Shown here: piece by piece, positions 5,946 to 18,971 of the stretch
Layout of the letters: each line of letters opens with the position of its first letter
Numbering within the stretch: position 1 is the stretch's first letter
NCBI GenBank assembly: GCA_963823555.1
Contig: CAWGMA010000002.1
Span: 640,001-704,000, forward strand
Direction of reading: 5' to 3'
DNA: 64,000 nucleotides
From: Candidatus Eiseniibacteriota bacterium
GTDB lineage: Bacteria > Eisenbacteria > RBG-16-71-46 > CAVPCR01
Position numbers and translations under genes: made by a program
The notes under the pieces: generated by a model
What the model saw: the letters and a program-made list of their open reading frames with translations, nothing else
Told to the model about the DNA's origin: nothing
The model's database searches: none

Positions 5946-8900
5946 ATGCCCAGCCCCATGCTCCACGCCATGCTTCGCGCGGCCACCATGACCGCCATGG
6001 CCGCTGTCGTGCTCGCCGCCCCCGCCCCGGCCGCGGATCGGGATTTCGCCGCCATGGGTCCCGACCAGACGATCGCGGCCTTTCGGGTCGAATGCCTCTA
6101 CGACAACGAGGCCGGAATGGTCATGGGGGCTCGACTCCGCCACGGGCCGAGCGGCATGGTCCTCGACTGCCTCCGCATCCAGTCGGTACCGCAGGCCTTC
6201 ATGTACGTGAACACGCCGCCCTCCTCCGATCGCGGTGAGCCCCACACCTGCGAGCACCTGCTCCTCGGCAAGGGCGTGCGGGGACGCGCCGTGGCCTCGC
6301 TCGAGGAGATGTCGCTCGGCACGAGCTCGGCCTTCACCATGCGGCTTCGTACCTGCTACCACTTCCACACCGCGGCCGGCGCCGAGACCTTCTACGATCT
6401 CCTCGAGGCCAAGCTCGCTGCTCTCGTCCATCCCGATTTCACCGACGAGGAGATCCGGCGCGAGGTCTGCAACATGGGTGTCGCCGTCGACCCGTCGACC
6501 GGGGACGTCCACCTCGAGGAGAAGGGAACCGTCTACAACGAGATGGTCTCGAGCTTCGAGCGCCCGTGGAGCCCTCTCATGCGCCAGCTGGAGCCGCTTC
6601 TCTACGGTGCGCGCCATCCGCTCGCGCTCTCCTCGGGGGGCTTTCCCGATTCGATCCGCACCATGGTCCCCGGGCACATGCGGGAATTCCTCGCCGACAC
6701 GCATCGCCTGTCGAACATGGGCATGATCGTGACCATCCCGGACGAGATCGCCCTCGACGATTGCCTCGAGCGCCTGAGCGCGATCCTCGCCCGGGTGGAA
6801 CCGGAGGCCCGCCCCGGAGCCGATCCGGCCACGGCCTACGATCGCCTGCCGTCCGCGAGGCCCGCCGCGCCGGGCGCGGTGCGCGTCGCCGAGTTCCCGC
6901 ACCCGAATCCGAACGAGCCGGGGATGATCCTTCTCGGCTGGGCGCCGCGGCTCGATCTCGACCTCGGGGAGGCCCTTCTCCTCGACCTTCTCGTGGGCAA
7001 CCTGGCCGGCGGCGAGACCTCCGATCTCTATCGCCGGTTCGTCGACTCGCAGACCCGGGGCATGGACACCGGGGCCACGGAGATCTTGAGCTGGACCACC
7101 GCATACCCGGGGCACCCCTTCTTCATCGGTCTCGGCAATGTCCGCCCCGATGTGATGACACCCGAGAAGATCGAGGCGGTGCGGGAGGTCATCCTCGGTG
7201 AGCTGGCGCGGGTGGCCGACTTCGCCGATGGATCCCCAGAGCTTCGCGCCTACAACCAGCGGGCGCTAGGCCGCCTCATCGAGAGTCGCCGTTCCCTCCG
7301 CAAGTTCTTGAACTCACCACCCGGTTTCGGCGCCCGCAATCTCGGTGCCGCCTGGATGGAGCATCTCGACCACCTGGCCACGGCCGGCGGCGCTCGCCGT
7401 TCGCTGGCCATGCAGGAGCCATTCTCGGCCGTCGAGCAGCTGATCGCGTCTGATCGCAACTTCTGGCGGGAGCGCATCGCGGCCTGGCAGCTCGTGACGC
7501 GAACGCCGGCGGCGGTCGCCGTCAAGCCCAACCCGGAGATCCTGGCCCGCTCGGAGGCCGCTCGTGCCGACCGCATCGCCCGCTTCACCGCCGATCTCGA
7601 GCGCCGCTACGGAGTCGAGAGTCCCGAGGCGGCGATCGCGCACTTCCGGGAGGAGTATGATGCGGCCACCGCCGAGATCGACGCTGCGGCCGCGGACACC
7701 GCGCTGCCGCGCTTCATCGATCAGCCTCCGCTCACCCTCGATGACCTCCTGCGCTACGAGGTCGGGGAATTCCCCGGCGCGGATGGCGCCCCGCTCGTGA
7801 CCTCGATCTTCGAGAACCTGAGCGGAGCCACGATCGGCATGGCGTTCCGTCTCGACGTGGTGCCGGAGTCGCTTCTCGTCTACGTGCCGGCGCTGCCCAC
7901 GCTCCTGGCCGATGTCGGGGTGATCCAGGATGGGAAACCCCTGACCTACGACGCGATGAAGGAGGCGATCCGCCGGGAGATCCTCGAGCTCACCACCTAC
8001 TTCACGTCGGACCAGCGCACGGGACGCACCGAGCTCGCCCTGAGGGCCGGAGGGACGGATATCGGCGAGACCGAGCGCGCGCTCGGATGGATGGGGGAGG
8101 CCCTGTTCGCGCCCGACTGGCGGGTCGAGAACCTGCCGCGGCTTCGTGACGTGGTGGACGGTGCGCTGGCCCGGGCCCGCGACCGCATGCACGAGTGGGA
8201 GGAGATGTGGGTGCGGGAGCCCTCCGACGGCTACCGCCAGCAGGACGATCCGCTCTTCCTCCACGCGCAGTGCTTCCTCACCCAGGAGCATGCGCTGCAC
8301 CGGCTGCGCTGGCTTCTCAAGGACCCGGGCGCCGCCGAGGAGCTCGCCGCGACCAGGGGATTTCTGATGGATGTCGCGGATTTCGGCGAGATGAGCGATC
8401 GCGCCGGGCTTGTGGCCCTGGCCACGGCACTCGCCGACAGCGCGGCCGGCGTCGATCTGTCTCCGGCGGCGGGCCGGCTGGTCACGGCGGCGGCGGCGCT
8501 CCCCGTCGCGAGCCGGGAGGCGATCGCGGCGGCGGCACGGGATCTCAGGCAGAGCCTCCCTGCGCTTCCCGAGGAGACCCTGGCGCAGGACTGGAGCTAT
8601 CTCTGCGCGCAGATGGCGGCGGACCTCGCCGTACCACCGGCAACGGCATTGGCGGCGCTCGCCCAGGTCAGGAACCTCATCCTGCGCGCGGACAACCTGC
8701 GGGGTTTCCTGGTGGCGAGCACGAGGACGGCCGCCGAGCTCGAGCCCAGCATGGCGGCCCTGGCCGCCCGTCTGGGCCGCGAACCGGCGGTGCGGCAGAC
8801 CTACGGCGCGCAGCCCCGGGTCGCTCTCCGTGCCGGCGACCGCATCCCGGAGCTGGCCGTGGCCGGGGAGAAGGGCGGCCCGCCTCCGACCACGGTCGGA

Positions 8901-9608
8901 CTCCTGAATGAGAGCACGCGGAACGGGGTCGTGATGAACAGCGCCCCGGCGCCGAGCTACTTCGAGACCGACCGCGCCTCGCTCCTCAACTTTCTGGCCT
9001 CGCGACTCTATGCCGGCGGCGGCGCCCACAGTCTCTTCATGCGCACCTGGGGCGCCGGGCTCGCCTACTCGAACGGGGTGGGCTCGAGCGAGAGCCAGGG
9101 GCGGATCATGTACTACGCCGAGCGCTGTCCCGATCTCGCCCAGACCGTTCGCTTCGTGGTGGATGAGCTTGAGAACGCGCCCGCCGACACGTCGCTTGCC
9201 GAGTACTCGCTGGCGCAGGCTTTCTCCTCCGATCGCGGTGCTCAGCGCTACGAGCAGCGAGGCGAGGCGATGGCGGCCGACTTGACCGACGGCGTGACAC
9301 CCGAGGTCGTGCGCGATTTCCGCACCGCGCTCCTCGATCTCCGCTCCGACCCCGATCTCTACGGCGAGTTGCGGGCGCGAATGGAGTCCGTCTACGGGAA
9401 GGTGTTGCCCGGGGTGGGGGAGGCCGGAGTGCCCGCGCCGGGCGCCGGGCAGTCCTTCATCATCGGGCCGGAGAAGCAGTTCCAGTCGTATGACGGATAC
9501 CTGAAGGGAGTCGCGGGGGAGACGGTCCGCCTCTACCGTCTCTATCCCCGCGACTTCTGGATCACGCGTCCACAGACAGGCAACGCGCACCCAAGAACGA
9601 GAATCTGA
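5946..9608 (+). CDS. Large M16 (inverzincin) metallopeptidase-like protein with probable signal peptide
   Basis: HxxEH (HTCEH), downstream KGTVYNEM as in PreP/M16C enzymes, GLAY near the C-terminus; N-terminal AVVLAAPAPA-A signal-like segment. Confidence 0.75.
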   Translation: MPSPMLHAMLRAATMTAMAAVVLAAPAPAADRDFAAMGPDQTIAAFRVECLYDNEAGMVMGARLRHGPSGMVLDCLRIQSVPQAFMYVNTPPSSDRGEPHTCEHLLLGKGVRGRAVASLEEMSLGTSSAFTMRLRTCYHFHTAAGAETFYDLLEAKLAALVHPDFTDEEIRREVCNMGVAVDPSTGDVHLEEKGTVYNEMVSSFERPWSPLMRQLEPLLYGARHPLALSSGGFPDSIRTMVPGHMREFLADTHRLSNMGMIVTIPDEIALDDCLERLSAILARVEPEARPGADPATAYDRLPSARPAAPGAVRVAEFPHPNPNEPGMILLGWAPRLDLDLGEALLLDLLVGNLAGGETSDLYRRFVDSQTRGMDTGATEILSWTTAYPGHPFFIGLGNVRPDVMTPEKIEAVREVILGELARVADFADGSPELRAYNQRALGRLIESRRSLRKFLNSPPGFGARNLGAAWMEHLDHLATAGGARRSLAMQEPFSAVEQLIASDRNFWRERIAAWQLVTRTPAAVAVKPNPEILARSEAARADRIARFTADLERRYGVESPEAAIAHFREEYDAATAEIDAAAADTALPRFIDQPPLTLDDLLRYEVGEFPGADGAPLVTSIFENLSGATIGMAFRLDVVPESLLVYVPALPTLLADVGVIQDGKPLTYDAMKEAIRREILELTTYFTSDQRTGRTELALRAGGTDIGETERALGWMGEALFAPDWRVENLPRLRDVVDGALARARDRMHEWEEMWVREPSDGYRQQDDPLFLHAQCFLTQEHALHRLRWLLKDPGAAEELAATRGFLMDVADFGEMSDRAGLVALATALADSAAGVDLSPAAGRLVTAAAALPVASREAIAAAARDLRQSLPALPEETLAQDWSYLCAQMAADLAVPPATALAALAQVRNLILRADNLRGFLVASTRTAAELEPSMAALAARLGREPAVRQTYGAQPRVALRAGDRIPELAVAGEKGGPPPTTVGLLNESTRNGVVMNSAPAPSYFETDRASLLNFLASRLYAGGGAHSLFMRTWGAGLAYSNGVGSSESQGRIMYYAERCPDLAQTVRFVVDELENAPADTSLAEYSLAQAFSSDRGAQRYEQRGEAMAADLTDGVTPEVVRDFRTALLDLRSDPDLYGELRARMESVYGKVLPGVGEAGVPAPGAGQSFIIGPEKQFQSYDGYLKGVAGETVRLYRLYPRDFWITRPQTGNAHPRTRI

Positions 9609-9651: not shown

Positions 9652-10332
9652 TCAGGCCGTCACCTTCTTCTGCGCCTCGAGCACCGCGGCCAGGAAGCGG
9701 GATTCTCCCTGCGCGCCGAGGAGCTCGACCCGGTCGTTGATCACGATCTTCGGCACCCCGGAGATGTCGTAGCGCCGCACGAGATCAGGGAACTCGCTCG
9801 CTTCGACCACATCCGCCGTCACTCGCTCGCTCTCGATCGCGAACTGATGAGCCAGGCGCGCCGCGCCCGGGCAGTGCGGTCAGGTGGGGGTGACGAAGAC
9901 CTGGATGTGGACGTCCTCCTTGAGTCCGGCAAGTGTCTCCCGGGTCTCCGGAGTGAGGGTGGTCGTCCCGCTGGAGACCTCGACCAGGTCCTGGACCAGG
10001 CTTGCGAACTCGTAGCCGCTGGGGATTCCGATGTAGCGCACCCGCCCCTTGGCCGCTCCCTTGAGCGTGAAGGCCGGAATGTGGTCGATGCCCTCGGCCC
10101 GGGCCGCGGCCTCGTCGGCCACGAAGTCCCGTACCTCGAGCTGGATCGAGTCGGAGAGCGATGCCACCTCGGTCAGGAGCTCGCGCGTCTCCTTGCAGGT
10201 CATGCACTCCTGGATCGGCAGGATGATCTTGGATTCGCGTTGCGTGTAGAGCTCGATCGTGACCGGTGCGGTCAGGTTCTTGTCAAAGTGGTCCTTGAGG
10301 AGCTGGGTCTCCCGGGTCGGGATCAGGTTCAT
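9652..10332 (-). CDS. Selenocysteine-containing protein-disulfide oxidoreductase (two-thioredoxin-fold PDO/AhpF-N-like; CMTC + UPHC)
   Basis: ORF stops at TGA 9880-9882 in VFVTPT-TGA-PHC, but the frame continues with PDO-like sequence (EASEFPDL...SGVPKIVIND...GAQGE) to TGA at 9652-9654; also GIPSGYEF. Confidence 0.9.
9852..9870 (-). promoter_or_regulatory. Candidate bacterial SECIS hairpin
   Basis: CCGGGCGC-GGC-GCGCCUGG stem-loop begins 10 nt after the in-frame UGA and has a G-containing loop. Confidence 0.6.
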
Positions 10333-10445: not shown

Positions 10446-11123
10446 CTACCGGTAGAGAGCCTTCACCGAGCCCCAGCTCGTCGGATCGACGGAGATGGGC
10501 GAGCAGAGGTTGACCGGCGAGGCACTGTTCCTCGGCGCCGCGGTTCCGGGCAAGAAATCGGCCGCGTTGTCATCGGTGTCCGTGCAACCCTCGTTGAGAC
10601 GGAAGCCGGCGTTCGTGTTGGAGAGCACCGGGCACGCGCCCGCGCCTTCGAAGCAGTTCGCGCTGCCGTAGCCCACCAGATCCACATAGCCCGGCGGGCA
10701 GGCGCCCGAAAGGGCGGTCGCGGACTGCACCAGCGCGACCTTCCCGCTCGTGGCCGACAAGGAGATCGTGCCGGAGGCGTCCGGCGTCGGGAGCGGCGTA
10801 GTTCCGCCGGCACCCTGGGCTTCCTGCACCAGATAGTACCCACCCGCGGGGATGGTCCCGCCCAGCAGCGTCACCTGCCACGTGCTTCCCGCGGACGAGG
10901 CGTACTGAACCGACCATCCAGAGACGTTGATCGGAACGCCGCTCCTGTTGAACAGCTCGATGAAATCGCTCGTGTAGGTCGATCCGCTGTTGCCACCGCC
11001 GCCGTACACCTGGCTGATGACCAGGTCGCTCGTGGCAAGAACGGGGGCCGTGAAGAGGATCAGGAGACCGACGGCAAGAAGAGAGGCCGAAATCCCAGGA
11101 GACCGCATGTAGAAACGGCGCAT
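10446..11123 (-). CDS. Secreted lamin-tail-domain protein with C-terminal TSWGSVKALYR tag
   Basis: Signal peptide, LVISQVYGGGGNSG...DFIELFN...GWSVQYAS LTD pattern, DTDDNAADF. Confidence 0.85.
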   Translation of the reverse strand: MRRFYMRSPGISASLLAVGLLILFTAPVLATSDLVISQVYGGGGNSGSTYTSDFIELFNRSGVPINVSGWSVQYASSAGSTWQVTLLGGTIPAGGYYLVQEAQGAGGTTPLPTPDASGTISLSATSGKVALVQSATALSGACPPGYVDLVGYGSANCFEGAGACPVLSNTNAGFRLNEGCTDTDDNAADFLPGTAAPRNSASPVNLCSPISVDPTSWGSVKALYR

Positions 11124-11619
11124 GGAAACCTCCCGCCGGGGGCCCACGAGGGCGCGGCTGATGGATGCTCTGGCATGAAGTGAAGGCGCCCGAGACGGGT
11201 CTCCGGAGGTCAGGAGGCCGGGAAACACTCCTCCTCTCCTCCTGGACGGCCACGGTGAGAGGTTGACCTTCGAGCATTCCGGGTATCTGCATAGGGAAGA
11301 GTTGGGTGTACAGGGACACTCTTCACCGGCTCGCAACCCTCACGGCCGGTCCCGAAACGCCGGGAAAGCATAGTCAAATCGAGCAGGACTATCAATGGCA
11401 AAGCCAAGAACTGCATACCACGAAGACCCATCGAAGGAACGATCAGCTACTCTGAGTTCGTCAATGGCTTGTACCCGTTGTTGGACAATGCCCACGGGTT
11501 GTATCAAATGGATGTGATCTCGGCATACCTGGGCCGGCGGTTTGGTTCACGCATCTCGGCGCCGCCGGCCAGGTTGCTCACGAGAAGGTCGAGCCGTGGG
11601 TTCAGGCCGGCCGGGATCC

Positions 11620-11790
11620 GGTGCTGCCGTCATCCGTCGAGCGGAAGATCCCCGGCGCGGCGCCCACCGCGATCAGGTCTCCGCCGGCAAGGACCAGCAG
11701 GTCCTCGAGATCGGTGGTGAATGCCGGGAACTGGTCGATGAGCATCCAGCTCGCACCACCGTCGGTGGCGCGGATCGTGGCGCCGCGGCA
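11620..11790 (-). pseudogene. Fragment of a BNR/Asp-box (YCF48-like) repeat protein
   Basis: Reads CRGATIRATDGGASWML...IAVGAAPGIFRSTDDGST with no start or intact end. Confidence 0.55.
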
Positions 11791-11921
11791 TTCACCTCGG
11801 CAACAGGATCGACCACCGAGCGCGCCGCCGAGATTCGGTGGCCCAGTTCACCGTGCAGGTTCTCGGGTCAGATCTACAGCACGCACACCGGGCTGGCCTG
11901 CGATCCCGCCCGATCGCTCGC

Positions 11922-13637
11922 CTATCTCAGCCTGAGGAACTTGATCGCCCCCGGAGCCGATCCATCTCCGCCGAGCCTGGCGAAGTACACACCGGCCGGT
12001 ACCGCCGTGCCGGGCGTCCACACCCATCGTCCCCCGCTCCCCGTGAGCCGATCGACGAGGCGACCTTGCGCGTCGTAGATCTCGAGGATGCGCGGGCCGG
12101 CGCCGGCGAGCGCGAACTCAGCCGCCCAGCGCACGGGGTTCGGGCTCACCACGAGCTGGTCCATGGCGGGAGGTGCCTCGCCCGCGGCCACGTCGGTGGC
12201 ACAGCCGACGGCGAGGGCGCCGATCAACCCGCAGCCCGGTGGGGAGTGGGCGGGTGCACAGGGAGATGCCGGGGCGAGCGCGAAGTCCCCGACCTCCGGC
12301 TCGCAGAAGTCAGGGTCGAGTGAGAAATTCCCGTTCGCTCCGCCCTGGCCTGCGATGCAATCGTCCCAGTCTCCGCCTGCATTGGCGAAGATATCGGTGC
12401 AGGACACGACCGCGGAGCTTACAGCGGAGCAGCGGATGGCGGCGCCCTCCGTGCTCGAGCTGATGATCGAGTTGCTCACGGTCAAGTACGATGGGATCGA
12501 GTTGCCATCCCGACCGACCATGATCCCCGAGCTGTTTCCGGCCATCGTGCAGTGGTCGACCGTCGCCATGGTGTCGTAGAGCTGGAGCGCGCCACCGAAG
12601 GCGGATTCGTTGCCCGTGAACACGCATTCCTCGATCCTCTGCTCGCCGTTGGCGGCGCGACATCCGCCGCCCTCGTCGGCCGCCGAGTTGCCGGTGAAGA
12701 GGCACCGCCGCACGACCATGCTGGGGCCGGCTGAGAGCTCGAGTCCGCCGCCGAACCGAGCCGAGTTCGCGATGAACTCGCAGTCCTCCACGGAGACGGA
12801 GCCCTGGAGGATCCCCGCGCCGCCGTTGTGGGCGACGTTCTCTCGGAAGATGCAGCGGCGGATGGTGACGACCGTGAAGTAGCCCGTGAAGATCGCACCG
12901 GCGATCGTGTCCGAGGTGTTGCCGGTGAAGGTGCATTCCTCGATGAGCGGGTCGGCATGGTCCATGGCCAGGAGCGCTCCGGCAGCGGCCGAGTGGATCT
13001 GGTGCAGGTAGAACACCTGGTTGTTCTCGAAGTGACATCGCAGGAACATCGGTGTTGATGGTGCGTAGCAGGCAACGGCGCCCCCGGCGGCCTGCTGTCC
13101 CTGGACCACGTTGTCGAGGAAGGTGCAGTCCTCGAATCGAGCCGAGGAGCTGATGCAGGCGACGGCGCCGCCGCCGCCGTTGGTCCGGTTCTCGGCGCGG
13201 TTGGAACGGAACACGCAGTCGCGAAAGGTGGGCGCGGAGACGACGAGCAGGGCGCCGCCGCCGGCCCCGTTCAGGCTCAGCGTCCGCGAGTCGCCCCCCT
13301 GGATCGTGAAGCCGGCGATCGTGGTCGCCGCTCCGACCATGAGCAGATTGAACACGCGCCCCGGGAGTCCGCCCTGGCCGAGGGCGGCGTCGATCGTGGT
13401 CGCGCCCGCGCCCTGCTCGGAGACGATGATGCGGTTCTGGCCGTCGAAGTGGAGATCGCGGTTTCCGGGGCCCCAGTAGGTGCCGGGAGCGACGAGGACC
13501 GTGTCGAGCTCCGAGGCGGCGTCGATCCCGGCCTGGATGGTGGGCTGGTCGGCGGGGACGCGTATCGTTGCCGCGGGTGATGTGGTGGCAAAGGCCAGGA
13601 GGAGACCAAGGGCCAGACCGAACCTGCGCAGAAGCAC
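11922..13637 (-). CDS. Secreted right-handed beta-helix (pectin-lyase-like) protein with short FlgD/T9SS-like C-terminal domain
   Basis: GTG start after AAGGAGG; signal peptide; IRVPADQPTIQAGID...VAPGTY; GGA(I/V)/FxxN repeats; PNP...IYDAQGRLV...GVYFARL tail. Confidence 0.85.
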   Translation of the reverse strand: MLLRRFGLALGLLLAFATTSPAATIRVPADQPTIQAGIDAASELDTVLVAPGTYWGPGNRDLHFDGQNRIIVSEQGAGATTIDAALGQGGLPGRVFNLLMVGAATTIAGFTIQGGDSRTLSLNGAGGGALLVVSAPTFRDCVFRSNRAENRTNGGGGAVACISSSARFEDCTFLDNVVQGQQAAGGAVACYAPSTPMFLRCHFENNQVFYLHQIHSAAAGALLAMDHADPLIEECTFTGNTSDTIAGAIFTGYFTVVTIRRCIFRENVAHNGGAGILQGSVSVEDCEFIANSARFGGGLELSAGPSMVVRRCLFTGNSAADEGGGCRAANGEQRIEECVFTGNESAFGGALQLYDTMATVDHCTMAGNSSGIMVGRDGNSIPSYLTVSNSIISSSTEGAAIRCSAVSSAVVSCTDIFANAGGDWDDCIAGQGGANGNFSLDPDFCEPEVGDFALAPASPCAPAHSPPGCGLIGALAVGCATDVAAGEAPPAMDQLVVSPNPVRWAAEFALAGAGPRILEIYDAQGRLVDRLTGSGGRWVWTPGTAVPAGVYFARLGGDGSAPGAIKFLRLR

Positions 13638-13793
13638 GGGAGGACCCTCCTTGAGCGGCGGCGGGAGTAGAGACGCCTCCATTGTATCACTCGCCTGAGA
13701 TGGCCCCATGCTCATGTGCACGCTGGCGAGCCCGCCGTGCCGCCGCGCCGCGGCCGGGAGGGGAAGCCGATCATGGTCGCTGGCGGCGGCGAA

Positions 13794-13858
13794 CAGCGGA
13801 AACAAGGCTCCTTGGATGTTTCAGCGGAAACACGTTTCCGGGTGTTCCAGCGGAAACA
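13794..13858. promoter_or_regulatory. Three CAGCGGAAACA repeats forming overlapping palindromes (candidate operator array)
   Basis: Copies at 13794, 13822 and 13848; TGTTTC-AGCG-GAAACA and GGAAAC-AC-GTTTCC dyads upstream of the beta-helix gene. Confidence 0.45.
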
Positions 13859-14015
13859 GGAGGGCAATCCCGGTGGTTGGTCGCGGCCCCGCCGCAGGTG
13901 GTCGGGCCACCCGCTCGTATCGCCAGGGTACCCGCAAGTGCAGGGGTGCGGGTTGCAGATGCGGAATCGTGGTCCGGGTCTACCGGTGCGTGGGTCCGCG
14001 GCGCCAGGCGGCCTC

Positions 14016-14138
14016 GGACATCATCCTCCGCCTCCCGTGAATTCACTCGCGAGATCGACGACTTTCGCAGGATGACATCCGTCGGTGCCTCAGGTTCCGC
14101 CACCAGGACGGGGCGCCGAGATTCGCTGGATCAGTTCA
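14016..14138 (+). mobile_element. Diverged right end of the 381-bp MITE family
   Basis: ggacatcatcctccgcctcccg...ggggcgccgagattcgctggatcagttca matches the right end of 28852-29232. Confidence 0.7.
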
Positions 14139-14246
14139 CCATCGGTGCGGGGGACGAAGAGCCCATCGGGGAGGAGGCAGTGAACGTGGGGGTGGAGGTT
14201 GAGGGCGCCGCCGAAGCGCTGGACGAAGGTGACCGCTCCCGACTGC
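14136..14246 (-). mobile_element. Fragment of ISCR/IS91-type transposase (HUH region)
   Basis: Near-identical to 62509-62619; QSGAVTFVQRFGGALNLHPHVHCLLPDG. Confidence 0.85.
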
Positions 14247-14310
14247 GTTGGCAGCGCGATTGTATTTTCGGACACTACTCCCTACAGAGCTTTCGGGACG
14301 GACAAGTTAC

Positions 14311-16218
14311 TCATGACGATCCTTCGGCTCCGCCGCCGAATTCGCGACGCAGCGACTCCGCATCCCAGGCGGCATCGCGCACGCTGGCGGCTTCCTCGAA
14401 TTGCTCGCTGGCGAGCAAACGCTCTAGCTCGGCGATCATCTCGCGGGCGCGACTGAAGTAGGCGCCCTGGTCGTGGCGCATGGCGGCGAGTTCGCGCAGA
14501 TGCTCCTCGTCGCGGCGTCGGAACAGATCGGCGGCGCGGCGCGCCTGGAGGCCGCGGAGACCGAGAGCACGGAGCGCGTCCACCCCGAGCTGTAGCGAGC
14601 TGTCGAGGGTTTGACGGTATACCTTCTCGACGCCGGCCTCCAGCAGTTCATAGGCATGCACGCGGCCGGTGGCGCGCGCCAGGATCTGTAGGTGCGGGTG
14701 GTGCTGGCGGACAACGCGCACCAAGCGCGAGACCGCCTCGGGATCCTCCAGCGCGATCACGAGCAGCCGGGCCTCGGCCGCGCCCGCCACGCGCAGTAGA
14801 TCGGTGCGCGTGGCATCGCCGTAGTAGACCTTCAGGCCCAGCTTGCGCAGGATCTCCACGCGGTCGCTGTCGTTGTCGAGAACAGTACAGCCCACGCCGT
14901 TGGCCCACAGCAGACGTCCCACCACGTTTCCAAAGTCACCGAAGCCGGCGATGAGCACTGGATTGTGCTGTGGCGCGACGTCGCTCTCGCGATCGTCCAC
15001 CTCGTGGGTGCCGACGTGCGGTTGCAGCACGCGCTCCTGGAAGAGCAGCAGCAGCGGCGTCAGGGCCATGCTCAGCGCCACGACGGCTATCAGGGGCGAG
15101 GCAACGTCTGCCGGCACTACATTGCTCTGGACCGCAAAGGAGAAGAGCACGAAGGCGAACTCGCCACCCTGGGCCAGCGCGAAGGCGAAGAGCAGGTTCT
15201 GGTCGAGGCTCATGCGGAAGAGGTGGCCGAGGACAAACAGCACCACGAACTTCACCAGCAGCAGCGCCCCGACCAGTGCGGCGATCTCTCCCGGCCGCTC
15301 GGCGATGAGGGCGAAGTCGATGGACGCGCCGACAGCGATGAAGAACACGCCGAGGAGCAACCCCTTGAACGGTTCGATGTCGCTCTCGAGCTCGTGGCGA
15401 TACTCGCTGTTGGCGAGCACGACCCCGGCGAGGAAAGTGCCCAGAGCCGGGCTCAGCCCGACCTCGCGCATCAGCAAGGCGATGCCCACGACCAGCAGCA
15501 AGGACGCAGCGGTGAACACCTCGTGGAGGCGAGCCCGCGCGATGAAGCGCAGCGCGGGTCGCACCAGGAAGCGACCGGCGATCACGATCAGGGCGACGGC
15601 GGCGAGCACTGCCAGGGTCTGTCCCCAGGCCGGGAACCCCGCCACCCAGGTGATGGCTTGCGCATGGTGGTCATCGGTGTGATCGCCCGCCGAGGGCAGC
15701 GTTGCCAGCAACGGGAGCAGCGCCAGCAGCGGGATGACGGCAACGTCCTGACAGAGCAGTACCGCAAAGGCGCCCTGCCCACCGTCGGTCTGCAGCTGTC
15801 GCTTCTCGGCGAGGGTCTGCAGCACGATGGCCGTGGAAGACAGCGCCAGGCAGAAGCCGACTGCCACGGCGACCTGCCAGACGAGTCCCGCCGCCAAGCC
15901 GATGCCGGCGACGGCGGCAGCGGTGACCAGGATCTGCAGTCCGCCAAGCCCGAGAATCGGCGTCCGCAGCCGCCAGAGTAGCTGCGGTTGCAACTCGAGG
16001 CCGATGACAAAGAGCATGAGCACGACGCCGAACTCGGCGAAGTGCATGACGTCCTGTCCCTCCGCGCCCACCAGGCCAAGCGCGAACGGACCGATAGCAA
16101 TGCCGCCTAGCAGGTAGCCGAGCACCGAACCGAGACCGAGTCGCTTCGCCAAGGGCACGGCGATCACGGCCGTGGCCAGGTACACGAACGCGGAGACGAA
16201 GAGATCCTGCGCCGCCAT
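14311..16218 (-). CDS. kefC: Glutathione-regulated K+ efflux CPA2 antiporter KefC/KefB-like
   Basis: LGLGSVLGYL, FAEFGVV, HELESDIEPFKGLLLG, QGGEFAFV, TrkA-N domain IAGFGDFG...YYGDATR. Confidence 0.92.
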   Translation of the reverse strand: MAAQDLFVSAFVYLATAVIAVPLAKRLGLGSVLGYLLGGIAIGPFALGLVGAEGQDVMHFAEFGVVLMLFVIGLELQPQLLWRLRTPILGLGGLQILVTAAAVAGIGLAAGLVWQVAVAVGFCLALSSTAIVLQTLAEKRQLQTDGGQGAFAVLLCQDVAVIPLLALLPLLATLPSAGDHTDDHHAQAITWVAGFPAWGQTLAVLAAVALIVIAGRFLVRPALRFIARARLHEVFTAASLLLVVGIALLMREVGLSPALGTFLAGVVLANSEYRHELESDIEPFKGLLLGVFFIAVGASIDFALIAERPGEIAALVGALLLVKFVVLFVLGHLFRMSLDQNLLFAFALAQGGEFAFVLFSFAVQSNVVPADVASPLIAVVALSMALTPLLLLFQERVLQPHVGTHEVDDRESDVAPQHNPVLIAGFGDFGNVVGRLLWANGVGCTVLDNDSDRVEILRKLGLKVYYGDATRTDLLRVAGAAEARLLVIALEDPEAVSRLVRVVRQHHPHLQILARATGRVHAYELLEAGVEKVYRQTLDSSLQLGVDALRALGLRGLQARRAADLFRRRDEEHLRELAAMRHDQGAYFSRAREMIAELERLLASEQFEEAASVRDAAWDAESLRREFGGGAEGSS

Positions 16219-16220
16219 CG

Positions 16221-16844
16221 TCAGGCCTTCTCGCGCGGGCGCAGGGCACGCTTTAGATCCACGTTGAGGCGTGGCGATGCGGAGACAGCCGCGATGTCCA
16301 CGCGGTCCTCCTGCAGAGCCTCCAGCACCTCCCGGTAGTCGCGGACGTGTCGGGCAATGGCCTCGTCGTCCATCGCGTGGGTGCCGTGCACAACGAACGG
16401 CGGCAGGAATTCCATCCCGCAGAGGCGCGCAGTCTGCTCCAGCGGCGCAAGCAACTGGCGAACGGTGAGGCGATTGGATCCTTGGGCACAGTAGGCCTCC
16501 TCGCGGCCGCCAGTGGTCACCACCTGGAGCCAGCGCTTGCCGCGCAGCGCGGTGCCCTGCGCGCCATAGGCCCAGCCGTGCTCAAGCACGAGGTCCTGCC
16601 ACTCCTTCACGATCGACGGCGTGCTGTACCAGTAGAATGGGTGCTGGCAAACGAAGACATCGTGGGCTAGCAACAGCTCCTGCTCGCGCCGCACGTCGAT
16701 GTCAAGGCGCGGATACATCTCGTAGAGATCGTGGAGGTGAACGTCGGGCAACTCCCGAGGCGCGGCAAGCAGGCGGCTGTTCACGCGCGATCGCTGCAGG
16801 GCGGGGTGCGCGAAGAGCACGAGCACGCGACGCCGCGCCATCAC
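16221..16844 (-). CDS. kefF: KefF/KefG-like NAD(P)H oxidoreductase (flavodoxin-2 fold)
   Basis: FAHP..SRVN, DLYEMYP, QHPFYWYSTP..KEWQD.VL..GWAYG; directly upstream of kefC. Confidence 0.9.
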   Translation of the reverse strand: MMARRRVLVLFAHPALQRSRVNSRLLAAPRELPDVHLHDLYEMYPRLDIDVRREQELLLAHDVFVCQHPFYWYSTPSIVKEWQDLVLEHGWAYGAQGTALRGKRWLQVVTTGGREEAYCAQGSNRLTVRQLLAPLEQTARLCGMEFLPPFVVHGTHAMDDEAIARHVRDYREVLEALQEDRVDIAAVSASPRLNVDLKRALRPREKA

Positions 16845-16924
16845 GAGTCCCCCGATTGGATGCGCGTCAGCGTAGTGCCCTCATGGGGGAATGTACGCAG
16901 CATATCGTGCAGGGTGGTCTCCAC

Positions 16925-17012
16925 TGTTTCGTGTTGTCTCCTGTCAACCTCAATGGGACCAAGTCGAGGTCTTGGATCAAGGGCCACTCTCATAGTGTAC
17001 TATATGCTGAAC
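16925..17012. repeat. ~80-bp motif shared with 21101-21176 (probable IS terminal remnant)
   Basis: tgtttcgtgt...tgtca(a/g)cctcaatgggaccaagtc...cact...tata(t/g)gctgaac present at both sites. Confidence 0.6.
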
Positions 17013-17114
17013 TCGCGCGGTCGGGTCGTATCGAGCATCCGACGAGGCGAGCCGATGCGCGACAGCTGCCCATCAGGCAGCGCGATCGGCTCCTGCGCAT
17101 AGCGAGTTCGTGTT

Positions 17115-17324
17115 TTGGGGATGGAGCAGATCATTACCGCGCCGCGTAGTCCCTGGCAGAACCCGTACGTCGAGCGGCTGATCGGCACCCTCCGCCGCGA
17201 GTGCCTCGACCACGTCATCGTGATGAACAAACGGCACCTGATAGGCATTCTCCGGAGCTACTTCCGCTACTACCACGGCTGGCGCACGCACCTGGCTCTC
17301 GACATGGACGCTCCGGAGGGGTGA
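17115..17324 (+). mobile_element. Integrase-core (rve, IS3/IS481-like) transposase fragment
   Basis: TAPRSPWQNPYVERLIGTLRRECLDH...YY...RTHLALD.DAP. Confidence 0.85.
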
Positions 17325-17387
17325 AGTGGACCATCCACTTCAGCGGACCGCCCGGACCCGTGGTTCCCCCTATGAGCGCCAACAACA

Positions 17388-17508
17388 CCGGGGACAGCGC
17401 AGGGCGTCGAGGTGGAACACCCGGCAGAGCAGCTGGGCCCAGGGCAGTGCGCGGCGGCGGCGTGGCAAGGTGGTGGGTGCGGGCGCCGCAAGCGGCGCGG
17501 TCGGAGTG
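17388..17508 (-). mobile_element. Fragment of ISCR/IS91-type transposase C-terminal region
   Basis: RRRALPWAQLLCRVFHLDALRCPRC, matching ~61748-61869. Confidence 0.8.
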
Positions 17509-17890
17509 GACTGTCTCCTTCTCGGCCCGGATGTCCCAGTTGATGAGATGCGTCTCCTCGGCAAAGAGGTATCCGCAGAGGTAGCGGATCATGGCCGCCG
17601 AACCACCACCATTGTTGCGAAGATCGAGAATGACCGCGCGGCTGTTGCCAAGAAAGTTCACGGCTGCCGTGGCGGCCGCGAATGCGTCATCGCCATGGGC
17701 GAACCGGTCGAAGCGGAGATAGTCGATCCCTCAGGGAAGGATCTCGGCTTTCACAAGACCGTAGTTGCCAGCACGCAGGATCTTCTCGCGCGCTCGACCT
17801 CGGCCGGATCCGCCTTCTGCTCGGCCGCCTGCAGCTCGCCCGGACGTGCGAACTGCGCGGGGGCGGGTCGGACCTGCATGAGAATGGCGA
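17508..17890 (-). pseudogene. S41 (IRBP-like) peptidase fragment with nonsense codon
   Basis: NYGLVKAEILP*GIDYLRFDRF...ILDLRNNGGGS; truncated by the transposase fragment. Confidence 0.75.
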
Positions 17891-18158
17891 GGATCGTCAA
17901 GCCGGCACACGGGCCAGCCACGGGCGGGATGCCGTGGATAGGAAGCGCATGGAACCTCCTCGTGGTTCAGGATCTCGCGGCCGGGCCCGGGTCCTTCTTC
18001 CAGGTACACTCCCCGCGCTGCGCGCGTTGCAGGACTCCCCGCCACAAATCGCTTCTGCCCAGCCAGCCTCATTGCCAGGAGAGCGCCAGGGGCTCAAGAC
18101 GGAAGGGGCGGCCCCTCAACCGGAAGCCGCCCCTCCAGGAACCAGCAGTTCAGACGGA

Positions 18159-18971
18159 CTACTGACTCATCAGATTCTTGATCGATCCCCAGGTCGCCGC
18201 TTCGACCGGGGTGGCTCCCCGCGGGAGTTCGATCACCGTCCCGTCCACCAGAGCCGCAAACAGGCCGAACCCGTACGGGGCGCCCGGCGTCAGATAGCCC
18301 GAGGCGAAGACCACCGCGGCGCCACCGCCGAGACCCGATAGATCCGCCAGGAACGCGGCCACTACGTTACCGGGCATGCCCGCGGGGGTGACCAAGAGCG
18401 TATACATGCTGGGCGGCACCGAGATGTAGTCCATCGAGAATTGCTTGAAGGCCAGATTCTCGAACAGTGGACCGACACCCTCGGCCAGCACATCGACAGA
18501 GGGCGCATCTGGCGCACCGTGGAAAGCGAGGATATCCACGTTGCCGCCCGTGCCCATGGTGCGCAGCATCGGGAAGATCTCGAGATTGAACTCGGTCGAA
18601 ATTCCCTCGGGGTTCATGGGCAGACTGGGATCGAGAACGCCCGAAGCCATGACTACGTACTTCTCGCCAGCCGCGAGTATCACGGGGAAGGTGGCGAGGA
18701 TATCTCCAGGTCCCGTGCTGTTTCCAGGAGCCACGCCGATGTTCAGCATCACGTCGGCCTCCAGAGTCACGAGGCCAGTGGCGGTCCGGAAAGCGAAGTT
18801 GTCGATGGCGAGGCCGTCATTGATATAGATGTCCACTTCAGCCGCCAGGGGATCGGGCGAATTGTGAATGACCTGGACATCCGCCGTCTGCGCAGAGGCC
18901 ATGCTCACCACCAGGAGCATTCCCAACGCGGACAGGGCCAGAGCACGATGGGTATTCATAAGAGCAGTCAT
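18159..18971 (-). CDS. Secreted DUF4397-like protein with C-terminal ATWGSIK tag
   Basis: Signal peptide; VQVIHNSPD..VDIY and FHGAPDAPSVDV repeats; ends ATPVEAATWGSIKNLMSQ. Confidence 0.8.
   Translation of the reverse strand: MTALMNTHRALALSALGMLLVVSMASAQTADVQVIHNSPDPLAAEVDIYINDGLAIDNFAFRTATGLVTLEADVMLNIGVAPGNSTGPGDILATFPVILAAGEKYVVMASGVLDPSLPMNPEGISTEFNLEIFPMLRTMGTGGNVDILAFHGAPDAPSVDVLAEGVGPLFENLAFKQFSMDYISVPPSMYTLLVTPAGMPGNVVAAFLADLSGLGGGAAVVFASGYLTPGAPYGFGLFAALVDGTVIELPRGATPVEAATWGSIKNLMSQ

What the first reader, a model, noticed from the sequence alone, without database searches (positions are those of the whole stretch)
10446..18971. Short C-terminal (T/S)WGS(V/I)K tag on unrelated secreted proteins: candidate sorting signal alternative to the FlgD/T9SS-like tail
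Seen: two unrelated signal-peptide proteins end in the same motif. The LTD protein (10446-11123) ends PISVDPTSWGSVKALYR* and the DUF4397-like protein (18159-18971) ends ATPVEAATWGSIKNLMSQ*. The linker before the tag (xxV-D/E) resembles the linker before the long tails of other secreted proteins here (ATDVA, ITSVP, PSGVA, TTAVP, PVAVD, TTGVA). Inference: two interchangeable C-terminal modules are appended at one linker or cleavage motif, and the short tag may be read by a dedicated secretion or anchoring machinery. I cannot tell whether this tag has been formally described.
Basis: partly seen in the sequence, partly recalled or inferred. Interest (0 to 1): 0.72.

Follow-up and report, generated by a model that had tools for sequence, protein, structure and literature searches.

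The report
Short export tag with lipoprotein reader
About 108 small exported proteins of this uncultured soil-type bacterium end in the same 16-residue tag, which is predicted to plug into a pocket of one conserved membrane lipoprotein encoded beside an unnamed, predicted very large outer-membrane pore, so the three likely form an undescribed protein-sorting route that runs beside type IX secretion.

Summary
Observation confirmed and far larger than the window. 108 proteins from 66 unrelated families end in [AP]VExx[TS]WGx[IVL]KxxY/F; none also carries the long T9SS-type CTD (271 proteins); 80 of 86 score as exported; all are small (max 488 aa). Homologous domains swap tag for CTD at one junction (21 cases). 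The tag occurs in 153 of 153 Eisenbacteria (one as a WS variant) and 101 of 101 Krumholzibacteriota genomes searched. A reader was found outside the window: a conserved operon of a ~32-strand barrel (A), lipoprotein B, whose own WG-type end helix is part of its NTF2-like fold, and lipoprotein C, which usually lacks that helix. The window's tag docks into C in a complex prediction (0.92, best control 0.12), on conserved residues; changes at two contact residues accompany genome-wide WG-to-WS tag shifts in four lineages, though a second sample fits only partly. Best reading: helix-complementation tag read by C, likely handed to barrel A. Export and PorU cleavage are untested; Pro at the would-be cut site in 45 of 108 argues against shared cleavage. 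No Pfam, NCBIfam, PDB or paper match. This scan noted the tag before on other DNA and on this genome.

The parts
10446..11123 (-). Secreted lamin-tail-domain (LTD) protein, 225 aa, carrying the tag
10446..10496 (-). TWG tag of the LTD protein (linker ISVDP + helix TSWGSVKALYR + stop); this peptide was the one docked into lipoprotein C
18159..18971 (-). Secreted DUF4397 protein, 270 aa, carrying the tag; a homologue elsewhere in the genome (C2:167881-169842) carries the long CTD at the same junction
18159..18212 (-). TWG tag of the DUF4397 protein
11922..13637 (-). Comparison: beta-helix protein with the long T9SS type A-like CTD (TIGR04183 22.7 bits, cut-off 23); same beta-helix family carries the short tag elsewhere in the genome
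19136..21022 (+). Comparison: second beta-helix ORF with a weak long CTD (TIGR04183 E 0.006); start not settled

Best explanation
The tag is a portable C-terminal signal on about 108 small exported proteins that is predicted to form a short helix plugging the pocket of a conserved NTF2-like lipoprotein (C), which likely works with its homologue B at a predicted ~32-strand outer-membrane barrel (A) and would hand the cargo to that barrel for export or display. Shown in sequence: the tag, its cargo class, its exclusion from CTD proteins, the A-B-C operon (this genome C2:173417-176930, about 463 kb before the window) and its conservation in two phyla, B's built-in WG-type end helix, and C's usual lack of it. 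Predicted: the NTF2-like fold, B's helix and cis tags filling the fold, the tag-C complex. Inferred: that C acts catalytically (one gene, ~108 clients) as a receptor at the barrel, that passage is through A, that the size limit (no cargo over 488 aa) reflects A's pore, and that the tag arose from B's end helix. Untested: whether the tag is cut, and on which side of the membrane C sits.
For: Tag-C complex: score 0.92 (runs 0.92, 0.89, 0.93), best of 3 controls 0.12; the mark was reached by 116 of 157 solved complexes and 2 of 215 mismatched pairs (roughly, own alignments used); runs agree in at least 97% of contacts, partner pLDDT 71-72. No solved relative of C or A by sequence, fold matches at 18% identity or less, so memory of a like complex is unlikely. 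Contact residues are more conserved than the rest (0.44 vs 0.32 over 24 diverse orthologues, p 0.002; V153, D76, D192, F70, E90 among the 15 most conserved). B and C are homologous (HHalign 99.3%); B's end helix has pLDDT 97 and reads T/S-W-G-x-L-R/K in 129 of 167 homologues parsed; a tagged C paralogue has its cis tag at pLDDT 94; tandem C-domain lipoproteins keep a tag after every repeat, including internal ones. First C after B is vacant in 26 of 33 loci. Covariation: in 55 genomes with 10 or more tags, the two columns of C that best track the share of WS-type tags are 72 and 76, the residues that touch the tag's Gly and Thr (top 2 of 41 columns; top 2 of 36 at genus level); all 8 genomes with 15% or more WS lack F72 or D76, in 4 places on the tree (3 forced by strong branches); G050 has 12 WS and 0 WG tags and V72/S76. 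Distribution: barrel in 123 of 153, B/C profile in 145 of 153 Eisenbacteria and 98 of 101 Krumholzibacteriota genomes; operon order kept in all 4 Krumholzibacteriota/Latescibacterota-titled loci fetched. Size split: median 236 aa vs 644 aa.
Against: All binding evidence is computed. The covariation holds only partly in 22 further genomes: 2 of 6 high-WS genomes have normal F72/D76 (G066, G064), the other 4 belong to a genus already counted, and G072 has S76 with 0 WS among 59 tags; the first sample was chosen partly after seeing WS counts. In 7 of 33 loci the operon's own C carries a full or degenerate helix in cis (more in genus g24), so its pocket is not always vacant. No genome that lacks the tag was found, so loss-together could not be tested. 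In one unnamed metagenome lineage B stands without A or C beside it (6 loci read), and B-like clusters occur in Bacteroidota, Rhodothermota and Ignavibacteriota, so B need not serve this route. Nothing ties cargo or C to barrel A except gene order. A complete T9SS core is present (SprA, PorV, PorU-like) and could be the real exit.
Confidence: 0.6

Rival explanations
1. Static tether: the tag binds lipoprotein C and its paralogues stoichiometrically and simply holds small enzymes, cohesins and binding proteins on the membrane (periplasmic face or surface); barrel A does something else, for example placing B and C.
For: Same binding evidence. C has paralogues, some in tandem arrays. A family of Cys-rich tagged proteins lies beside CTD peptidase genes and a protein with a dockerin-like end (dockerin/cohesin labels are by eye and from note e1-9942931, Pfam gave none), as an anchor would.
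Against: In this genome only one vacant C gene serves about 108 clients; the other three paralogues carry their own tags. A tether does not explain the size ceiling (0 of 86 over 488 aa against 143 of 236 CTD proteins with bodies over 480 aa) or the self-plugging helices on C in some lineages.
Confidence: 0.2
2. Minimal T9SS signal: the tag (perhaps through C as adaptor) enters the SprA translocon and is cut by a PorU-type sortase at the xAV-E linker like the long CTD.
For: Swap junction coincides with the CTD linker in 21 homologous pairs; SprA over cut-off, 6 PorV-family genes over cut-off and 21 peptidase C25 matches in this genome; SprA in 5 of 5 relatives tested; PorU cuts before a small residue followed by Ile (PMC11969387, passages read).
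Against: Even the shortest known CTDs are 43-55 aa with three beta-strands needed for PorV binding (PMC11969387, passages); the tag is 16 aa and helical. Pro sits at the would-be first position after the cut in 45 of 108. Tag number varies from 1 to 95 independently of CTD number (G018: 1 tag, 43 FlgD-type tails). The predicted reader lies in an operon apart from all T9SS genes.
Confidence: 0.13
3. Reader-free amphipathic helix that sticks to membrane lipid, LPS or peptidoglycan.
For: W, I/V and Y/F fall on one face with a basic end; predicted helix.
Against: Invariant Gly and Lys and near-invariant Thr/Ser point to a shaped site; genome-wide WG-to-WS shifts (G050 12 of 12) imply one reader per genome; confident docking into C.
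Confidence: 0.05

Closest known systems
T9SS type A C-terminal domain (TIGR04183 Por_Secre_tail; FlgD_ig PF13860-like here) with PorV, SprA and PorU
   Same: Portable C-terminal signal on Sec-exported, unrelated proteins; appended at the same junction; same genome holds 271 CTD proteins and the T9SS core.
   Different: 16-aa helix instead of a beta-sandwich; predicted reader is an NTF2-like lipoprotein, not a PorV barrel; cargo is small; cut site doubtful.
Short CTDs of Prevotella intermedia (PMC11969387, abstract and passages) and type B CTD / PorP-SprF shuttle pairs (PMC12618676, abstract and passages)
   Same: A second, shorter or separately read class of C-terminal signal beside type A.
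   Different: Those keep beta-strand motifs and bind barrel shuttles of the T9SS; no PorP-family gene was found here (control did not ring, so inconclusive).
Pilotin and secretin S-domain (PulS/OutS, AspS/EpsS; PMC6532946, passages; analogy taken from scan note e1-9579150)
   Same: A small lipoprotein binds a C-terminal helix that is unstructured on its own and brings its client to the outer membrane.
Sortase-type C-terminal tags (LPXTG, PEP-CTERM, MYXO-CTERM, GlyGly-CTERM; recalled, from no call)
   Same: Short conserved motif at the C-terminus of many unrelated exported proteins, with a basic last residue.
   Different: No transmembrane helix (0 of 86 tagged proteins); no transpeptidase found linked.

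Membership tests
T9SS type A CTD | Folded beta-strand domain of at least about 43 aa with motifs B, D, E | tested here: not met
   Tag is 16-18 aa, modelled as a helix; no TIGR04183 match on the two window proteins; 0 of 108 hit the own CTD profile; PMC11969387 passages
T9SS type A CTD | N-terminal signal peptide on the cargo | tested here: met
   80 of 86 by a lenient hydrophobicity heuristic, against 834 of 2,450 controls and 187 of 236 CTD proteins; SignalP not available
T9SS type A CTD | PorU cleavage site (small residue, then I/V) in the linker | tested here: inconclusive
   V in 90 of 108, but the residue before it is Ala 46, Pro 45, Gly 2; linker decays in orthologues
T9SS type A CTD | SprA, PorV, PorU present in the genome | tested here: met
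T9SS type A CTD | Binding to PorV | not tested
   The single complex job went to lipoprotein C
T9SS (complete) | GldM/PorM motor and PorP shuttles | tested here: inconclusive
   Not found in 21 genomes (GldM) or this genome (PorP), but the controls did not ring
Sortase-type CTERM tags | Transmembrane helix followed by basic residues | tested here: not met
   0 of 86 tagged proteins have a hydrophobic 19-mer after the signal peptide
Pilotin / S-domain | Lipoprotein that binds a C-terminal helix of its client | tested here: inconclusive
   Predicted only: 0.92 against control 0.12
Pilotin / S-domain | Client is a secretin | tested here: not met
   Clients are small soluble proteins of 66 families
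NTF2-like superfamily (lipoproteins B and C) | Cone-shaped alpha+beta fold | tested here: met
   B model: Z 14.2, rmsd 1.9, 116 aligned to 3rob_A, 9% identity; C paralogue model: Foldseek hits all NTF2/SnoaL-like, E about 1e-4
Named outer-membrane barrel families (barrel A) | Match to a curated model or solved structure | tested here: inconclusive
   No NCBIfam family shared by more than 1 of 38 members, no PDB sequence match, Pfam below cut-off; no fold model was made

The most novel reading that the evidence does not exclude
An undescribed outer-membrane protein export system of Eisenbacteria and Krumholzibacteriota: a single-chain ~32-strand barrel with two NTF2-like lipoproteins, whose substrates are chosen by helix complementation (the cargo's 10-residue end helix completes the fold of the receptor lipoprotein), dedicated to small folded proteins and lipoproteins while the T9SS takes the large ones.
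Probability: 0.45. Interest if true: 0.95.

Novelty: categorically new. Interest (0 to 1): 0.86.

Why it matters
Two whole uncultured phyla mark up to about 100 proteins per genome (2-3% of genes here) with a signal that no database names. A signal this short with a named, soluble, single-domain reader is directly testable without culturing the host (peptide plus purified lipoprotein), would be a new recognition principle for protein sorting, and points to an unnamed barrel nearly as large as the T9SS translocon. It also gives a compact tag-receptor pair of possible use in protein display.

Tried and rejected
1) G050 as a natural tag-less genome: it scored 0 with the WG pattern but carries 12 WS-type tags; the 'knock-out' comparison was dropped. 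2) Neighbours of tagged genes as readers: no enriched family other than other tagged or CTD genes; 80 loci of the one universally tagged LTD protein have only housekeeping neighbours; the LTD-barrel-barrel genes near it (C1:306284-310139) were seen in only 4 of 80 loci and were not pursued. 3) Tag in front of a CTD, as notes report for Poribacteria: 0 cases in this genome. 4) Database names for the tag, B, C or A: none in Pfam, NCBIfam, PDB. 5) Literature: searches (TWG + C-terminal motif + Poribacteria: 0; Eisenbacteria/Krumholzibacteria + type IX + C-terminal: 0; listings only, nothing relevant; TWG-CTERM, TWGxIK, WGxxK motif, TWG motif: 2 unrelated eukaryotic papers); the library lacks most subscription journals and supplements were not opened. 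6) A Bacteroidetes-type lipoprotein export signal on the tagged paralogues: acidic residues follow the Cys but do not match the published spacing cleanly (PMC5080379, passages); left open. 7) Taxa and fold of barrel A and C from the Atlas, and any Poribacteria or tag-free FCB genome, could not be obtained, so co-loss is untested. 8) The careful tree did not finish; the quick tree was used.

Full report
Observation. In the whole genome (4.62 Mb, 4 contigs, 92.5% complete), [TS]WGx[IVLM]K occurs 109 times in 73,644 stop-to-stop ORFs of six frames, and 104 of these lie 3-11 residues before the stop. The logo is [AP]-V88-E77-P-x-T90/S14-W-G-x-I77/V22-K-x-x-Y54/F30-(R). A score matrix gave 108 tagged ORFs, of which about three are duplicates or fragments at a contig overlap. 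The closest titled relatives of the conserved tagged protein are Ca. Eisenbacteria (78%).

Cargo. With my own gene caller and a lenient signal-peptide heuristic, 80 of 86 tagged genes of 100 aa or more look exported, against 834 of 2,450 other non-membrane genes and 187 of 236 long-tail genes; none has a later transmembrane segment. They fall in 66 families by single linkage. They are small: median 236 aa, maximum 488, against median 644 for long-tail proteins, and Cys-rich. An iterated profile of the long tail found 271 ORFs, none shared with the 108. 38 of 108 tagged bodies have a CTD-bearing homologue in the genome, and in 21 the alignment runs to the same junction, the window's DUF4397 protein among them. 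So the two modules are interchangeable in evolution. The long tail is a T9SS type A-like CTD: at least 150 TIGR04183 matches, SprA over cut-off, six PorV-family genes over cut-off, 21 peptidase C25 matches, one directly before a PorV gene.

The shared linker. A loose linker pattern was found in 148 of 216 CTD linkers (17% of control windows) and at a fixed place in 72 of 108 tags. But the residue before V is Gly or Ala in CTD linkers (63, 45; Pro 20) and Ala or Pro in tags (46, 45; Gly 2). PorU cuts before a small residue followed by Ile, and even short CTDs need three beta-strands (PMC11969387; abstract and passages read). Orthologues often lose the xVE. Shared cleavage is therefore doubtful.

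Spread. A DNA pattern for the tag hit 152 of 153 Eisenbacteria genomes (1-95 copies; reversed controls 0-2) and 101 of 101 genomes of the phylum of a Krumholzibacteriota-titled locus. The one miss, G050, looked tag-free but has 12 tags of the form [TS]W-S-x-[IL]K and none with Gly.

Three lipoprotein genes carry the tag after every domain, also internally. Their family has a tag-less member in an operon at C2:173417-176930, about 463 kb before the window: barrel A (663 aa, ends in Phe, about 32 amphipathic strands by periodicity in 38 orthologues), lipoprotein B (ends in a tag-like helix), lipoprotein C (stops right after the last strand). Among 57 homologues with a parsed lipobox, 29 start C-I/L-F and lack the tag, 18 lack that start and carry it, 10 have neither, none both. 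A is single-copy in 123 of 153 genomes by one protein query; the B/C profile hits 145 of 153 and 98 of 101; the order tatD-rsmA-A-B-C is kept in both phyla. B and C are homologous and NTF2-like. B's end helix is modelled at pLDDT 97 and reads T/S-W-G-x-L-R/K in 129 of 167 homologues that could be parsed; the family has 1,946 clusters at 50% identity, with look-alike clusters in Bacteroidota, Rhodothermota and Ignavibacteriota and no common Pfam family. A tagged C paralogue has its tag at pLDDT 94. The first C after B has no helix in 26 of 33 distinct loci (a few of these are frameshifted fragments), a degenerate one in 6 and a full tag in 1.

Binding test. Tag-less C (alignment of 66 rows, cut before any paralogue tag) with the last 32 residues of the window's LTD protein (45 rows, none from C paralogues) scored 0.92, best of 3 controls 0.12; the mark was reached by 116 of 157 solved complexes and 2 of 215 mismatched pairs, counts that hold only roughly with own alignments; runs agree in at least 97% of contacts; partner pLDDT 71-72. 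W packs on L141, V153 and D192, G on F70 and F72, T/S on D76, Y on residues 93-100; the linker also touches. Contact positions are more conserved than others (0.44 vs 0.32, p 0.002). No solved relative of C or A was found by sequence. The model supports binding; it does not show it.

Covariation. I aligned the operon's C from 61 genomes and dropped 6 with fewer than 10 tags. Of 41 variable columns, 72 and 76 best track the share of WS tags (p 1.5e-5 and 1.8e-3, kin uncorrected) and stay first at genus level (40 genera). All 41 genomes with F72 and D76 have under 15% WS; 8 of the other 14 have 15% or more, and the 6 that do not have L or I at 72 (a grouping made afterwards). The high-WS label needs 4 changes on a quick tree, 3 forced by strong branches. 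These genomes were picked partly after seeing WS counts. In 22 further genomes (of 23 tried) the fit is partial: of 6 high-WS genomes 4 have S72 but belong to a genus already counted and 2 have normal residues; of 16 low-WS genomes 9 are normal, 5 are that same genus at 9-14% WS, one has S76 with no WS tag, and one pick is doubtful.

Mechanism. Shown: tag, cargo class, exclusivity, swaps, operon, helix present in B and usually absent in C. Predicted: helix complementation of C by the tag (about 0.85 in my judgement). Inferred: one vacant C for about 108 clients, self-plugging helices on C in some lineages and a size ceiling fit a receptor that binds transiently and passes cargo to barrel A better than a fixed anchor (overall 0.6). 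Against: only gene order links A; B occurs alone elsewhere; no tag-free genome was available to test co-loss; the T9SS core is present; GldM and PorP searches were inconclusive.

Known systems. It works like a pilotin binding a secretin's C-terminal helix (PMC6532946, passages) and sits where T9SS CTDs sit (PMC11969387; PMC12618676, abstract and passages), but fails defining features of each and of sortase tags (recalled). Nine paper searches bearing on the tag or its parts found no description (for the cleavage site; listings only unless a paper is cited); most subscription journals are not held and no supplements were read. This scan noted the tag before in Poribacteria and other genomes (one note named a barrel operon as candidate reader before I found this one) and on this genome (seen after my own tests: one note reaches the same lipoprotein-barrel model and supplied the pilotin analogy, two favour the T9SS reading). 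These notes are not counted as evidence.

Verdict. Real, phylum-wide, undescribed in what I could search, with a specific and cheaply testable reader. Interest 0.86; categorically new as a tag-receptor pair, with the export step still inferred.

Noticed in passing
L023:12560-13189 (G000:C1:312559-313191): One small tagged LTD protein is conserved across Eisenbacteria and Krumholzibacteriota, is kept even in genomes with only 1-5 tags (5 of 5), and ends in the strict tag in 70 of 79 complete orthologues, with variants in the rest; it may be a core part or founding client of the system.
   Followed up: partly
L029:5360-8471 (G000:C1:1650359-1653470): Three tandem lipoprotein genes made of C-type domains, each domain followed by its own tag, also internally; up to three or four such repeats in other genomes (P0195, P0229).
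   Followed up: yes
L121:2683-4233 and 14379-15011 (G000:C1:332682-345010): A Cys-rich tagged family (8-10 members) sits beside peptidase C25 CTD genes and a protein with a dockerin-like end; no Pfam match.
   Followed up: no
L023:6285-10140 (G000:C1:306284-310139): LTD-LTD-FlgD-like protein followed by two barrel-like genes without Pfam match, syntenic in some relatives.
   Followed up: partly
G000:C1, peptidase C25 matches: At least 16 long peptidase C25 (gingipain/PorU-like) genes, six in one tandem array at C1:490795-519114.
   Followed up: no
window 9652-10332 (-): Two adjacent thioredoxin-like ORFs split after ...VFVTPT at a stop; the genome has a tRNA-Sec, so this may be one selenoprotein read through an in-frame stop (codon not checked).
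   Followed up: no
window 5946-9608 (+): 1,220-aa secreted protein with only a weak peptidase M16 match (E 0.012).
   Followed up: no
tagged proteome: Tagged proteins are Cys-rich (2.5% against 0.9% for CTD proteins and 0.8% for the rest), many with a Cys just before the linker.
   Followed up: no
L184-L190 (metagenome contigs): In an unnamed lineage lipoprotein B ends almost exactly like a cargo tag and stands before enolase with no barrel A or C nearby.
   Followed up: partly
G000:C2:715931-722523 and C4:565-8775: The end of contig C2 and the start of C4 repeat the same tagged genes, apparently an assembly overlap, so the count of 108 includes about three duplicates or fragments.
   Followed up: no
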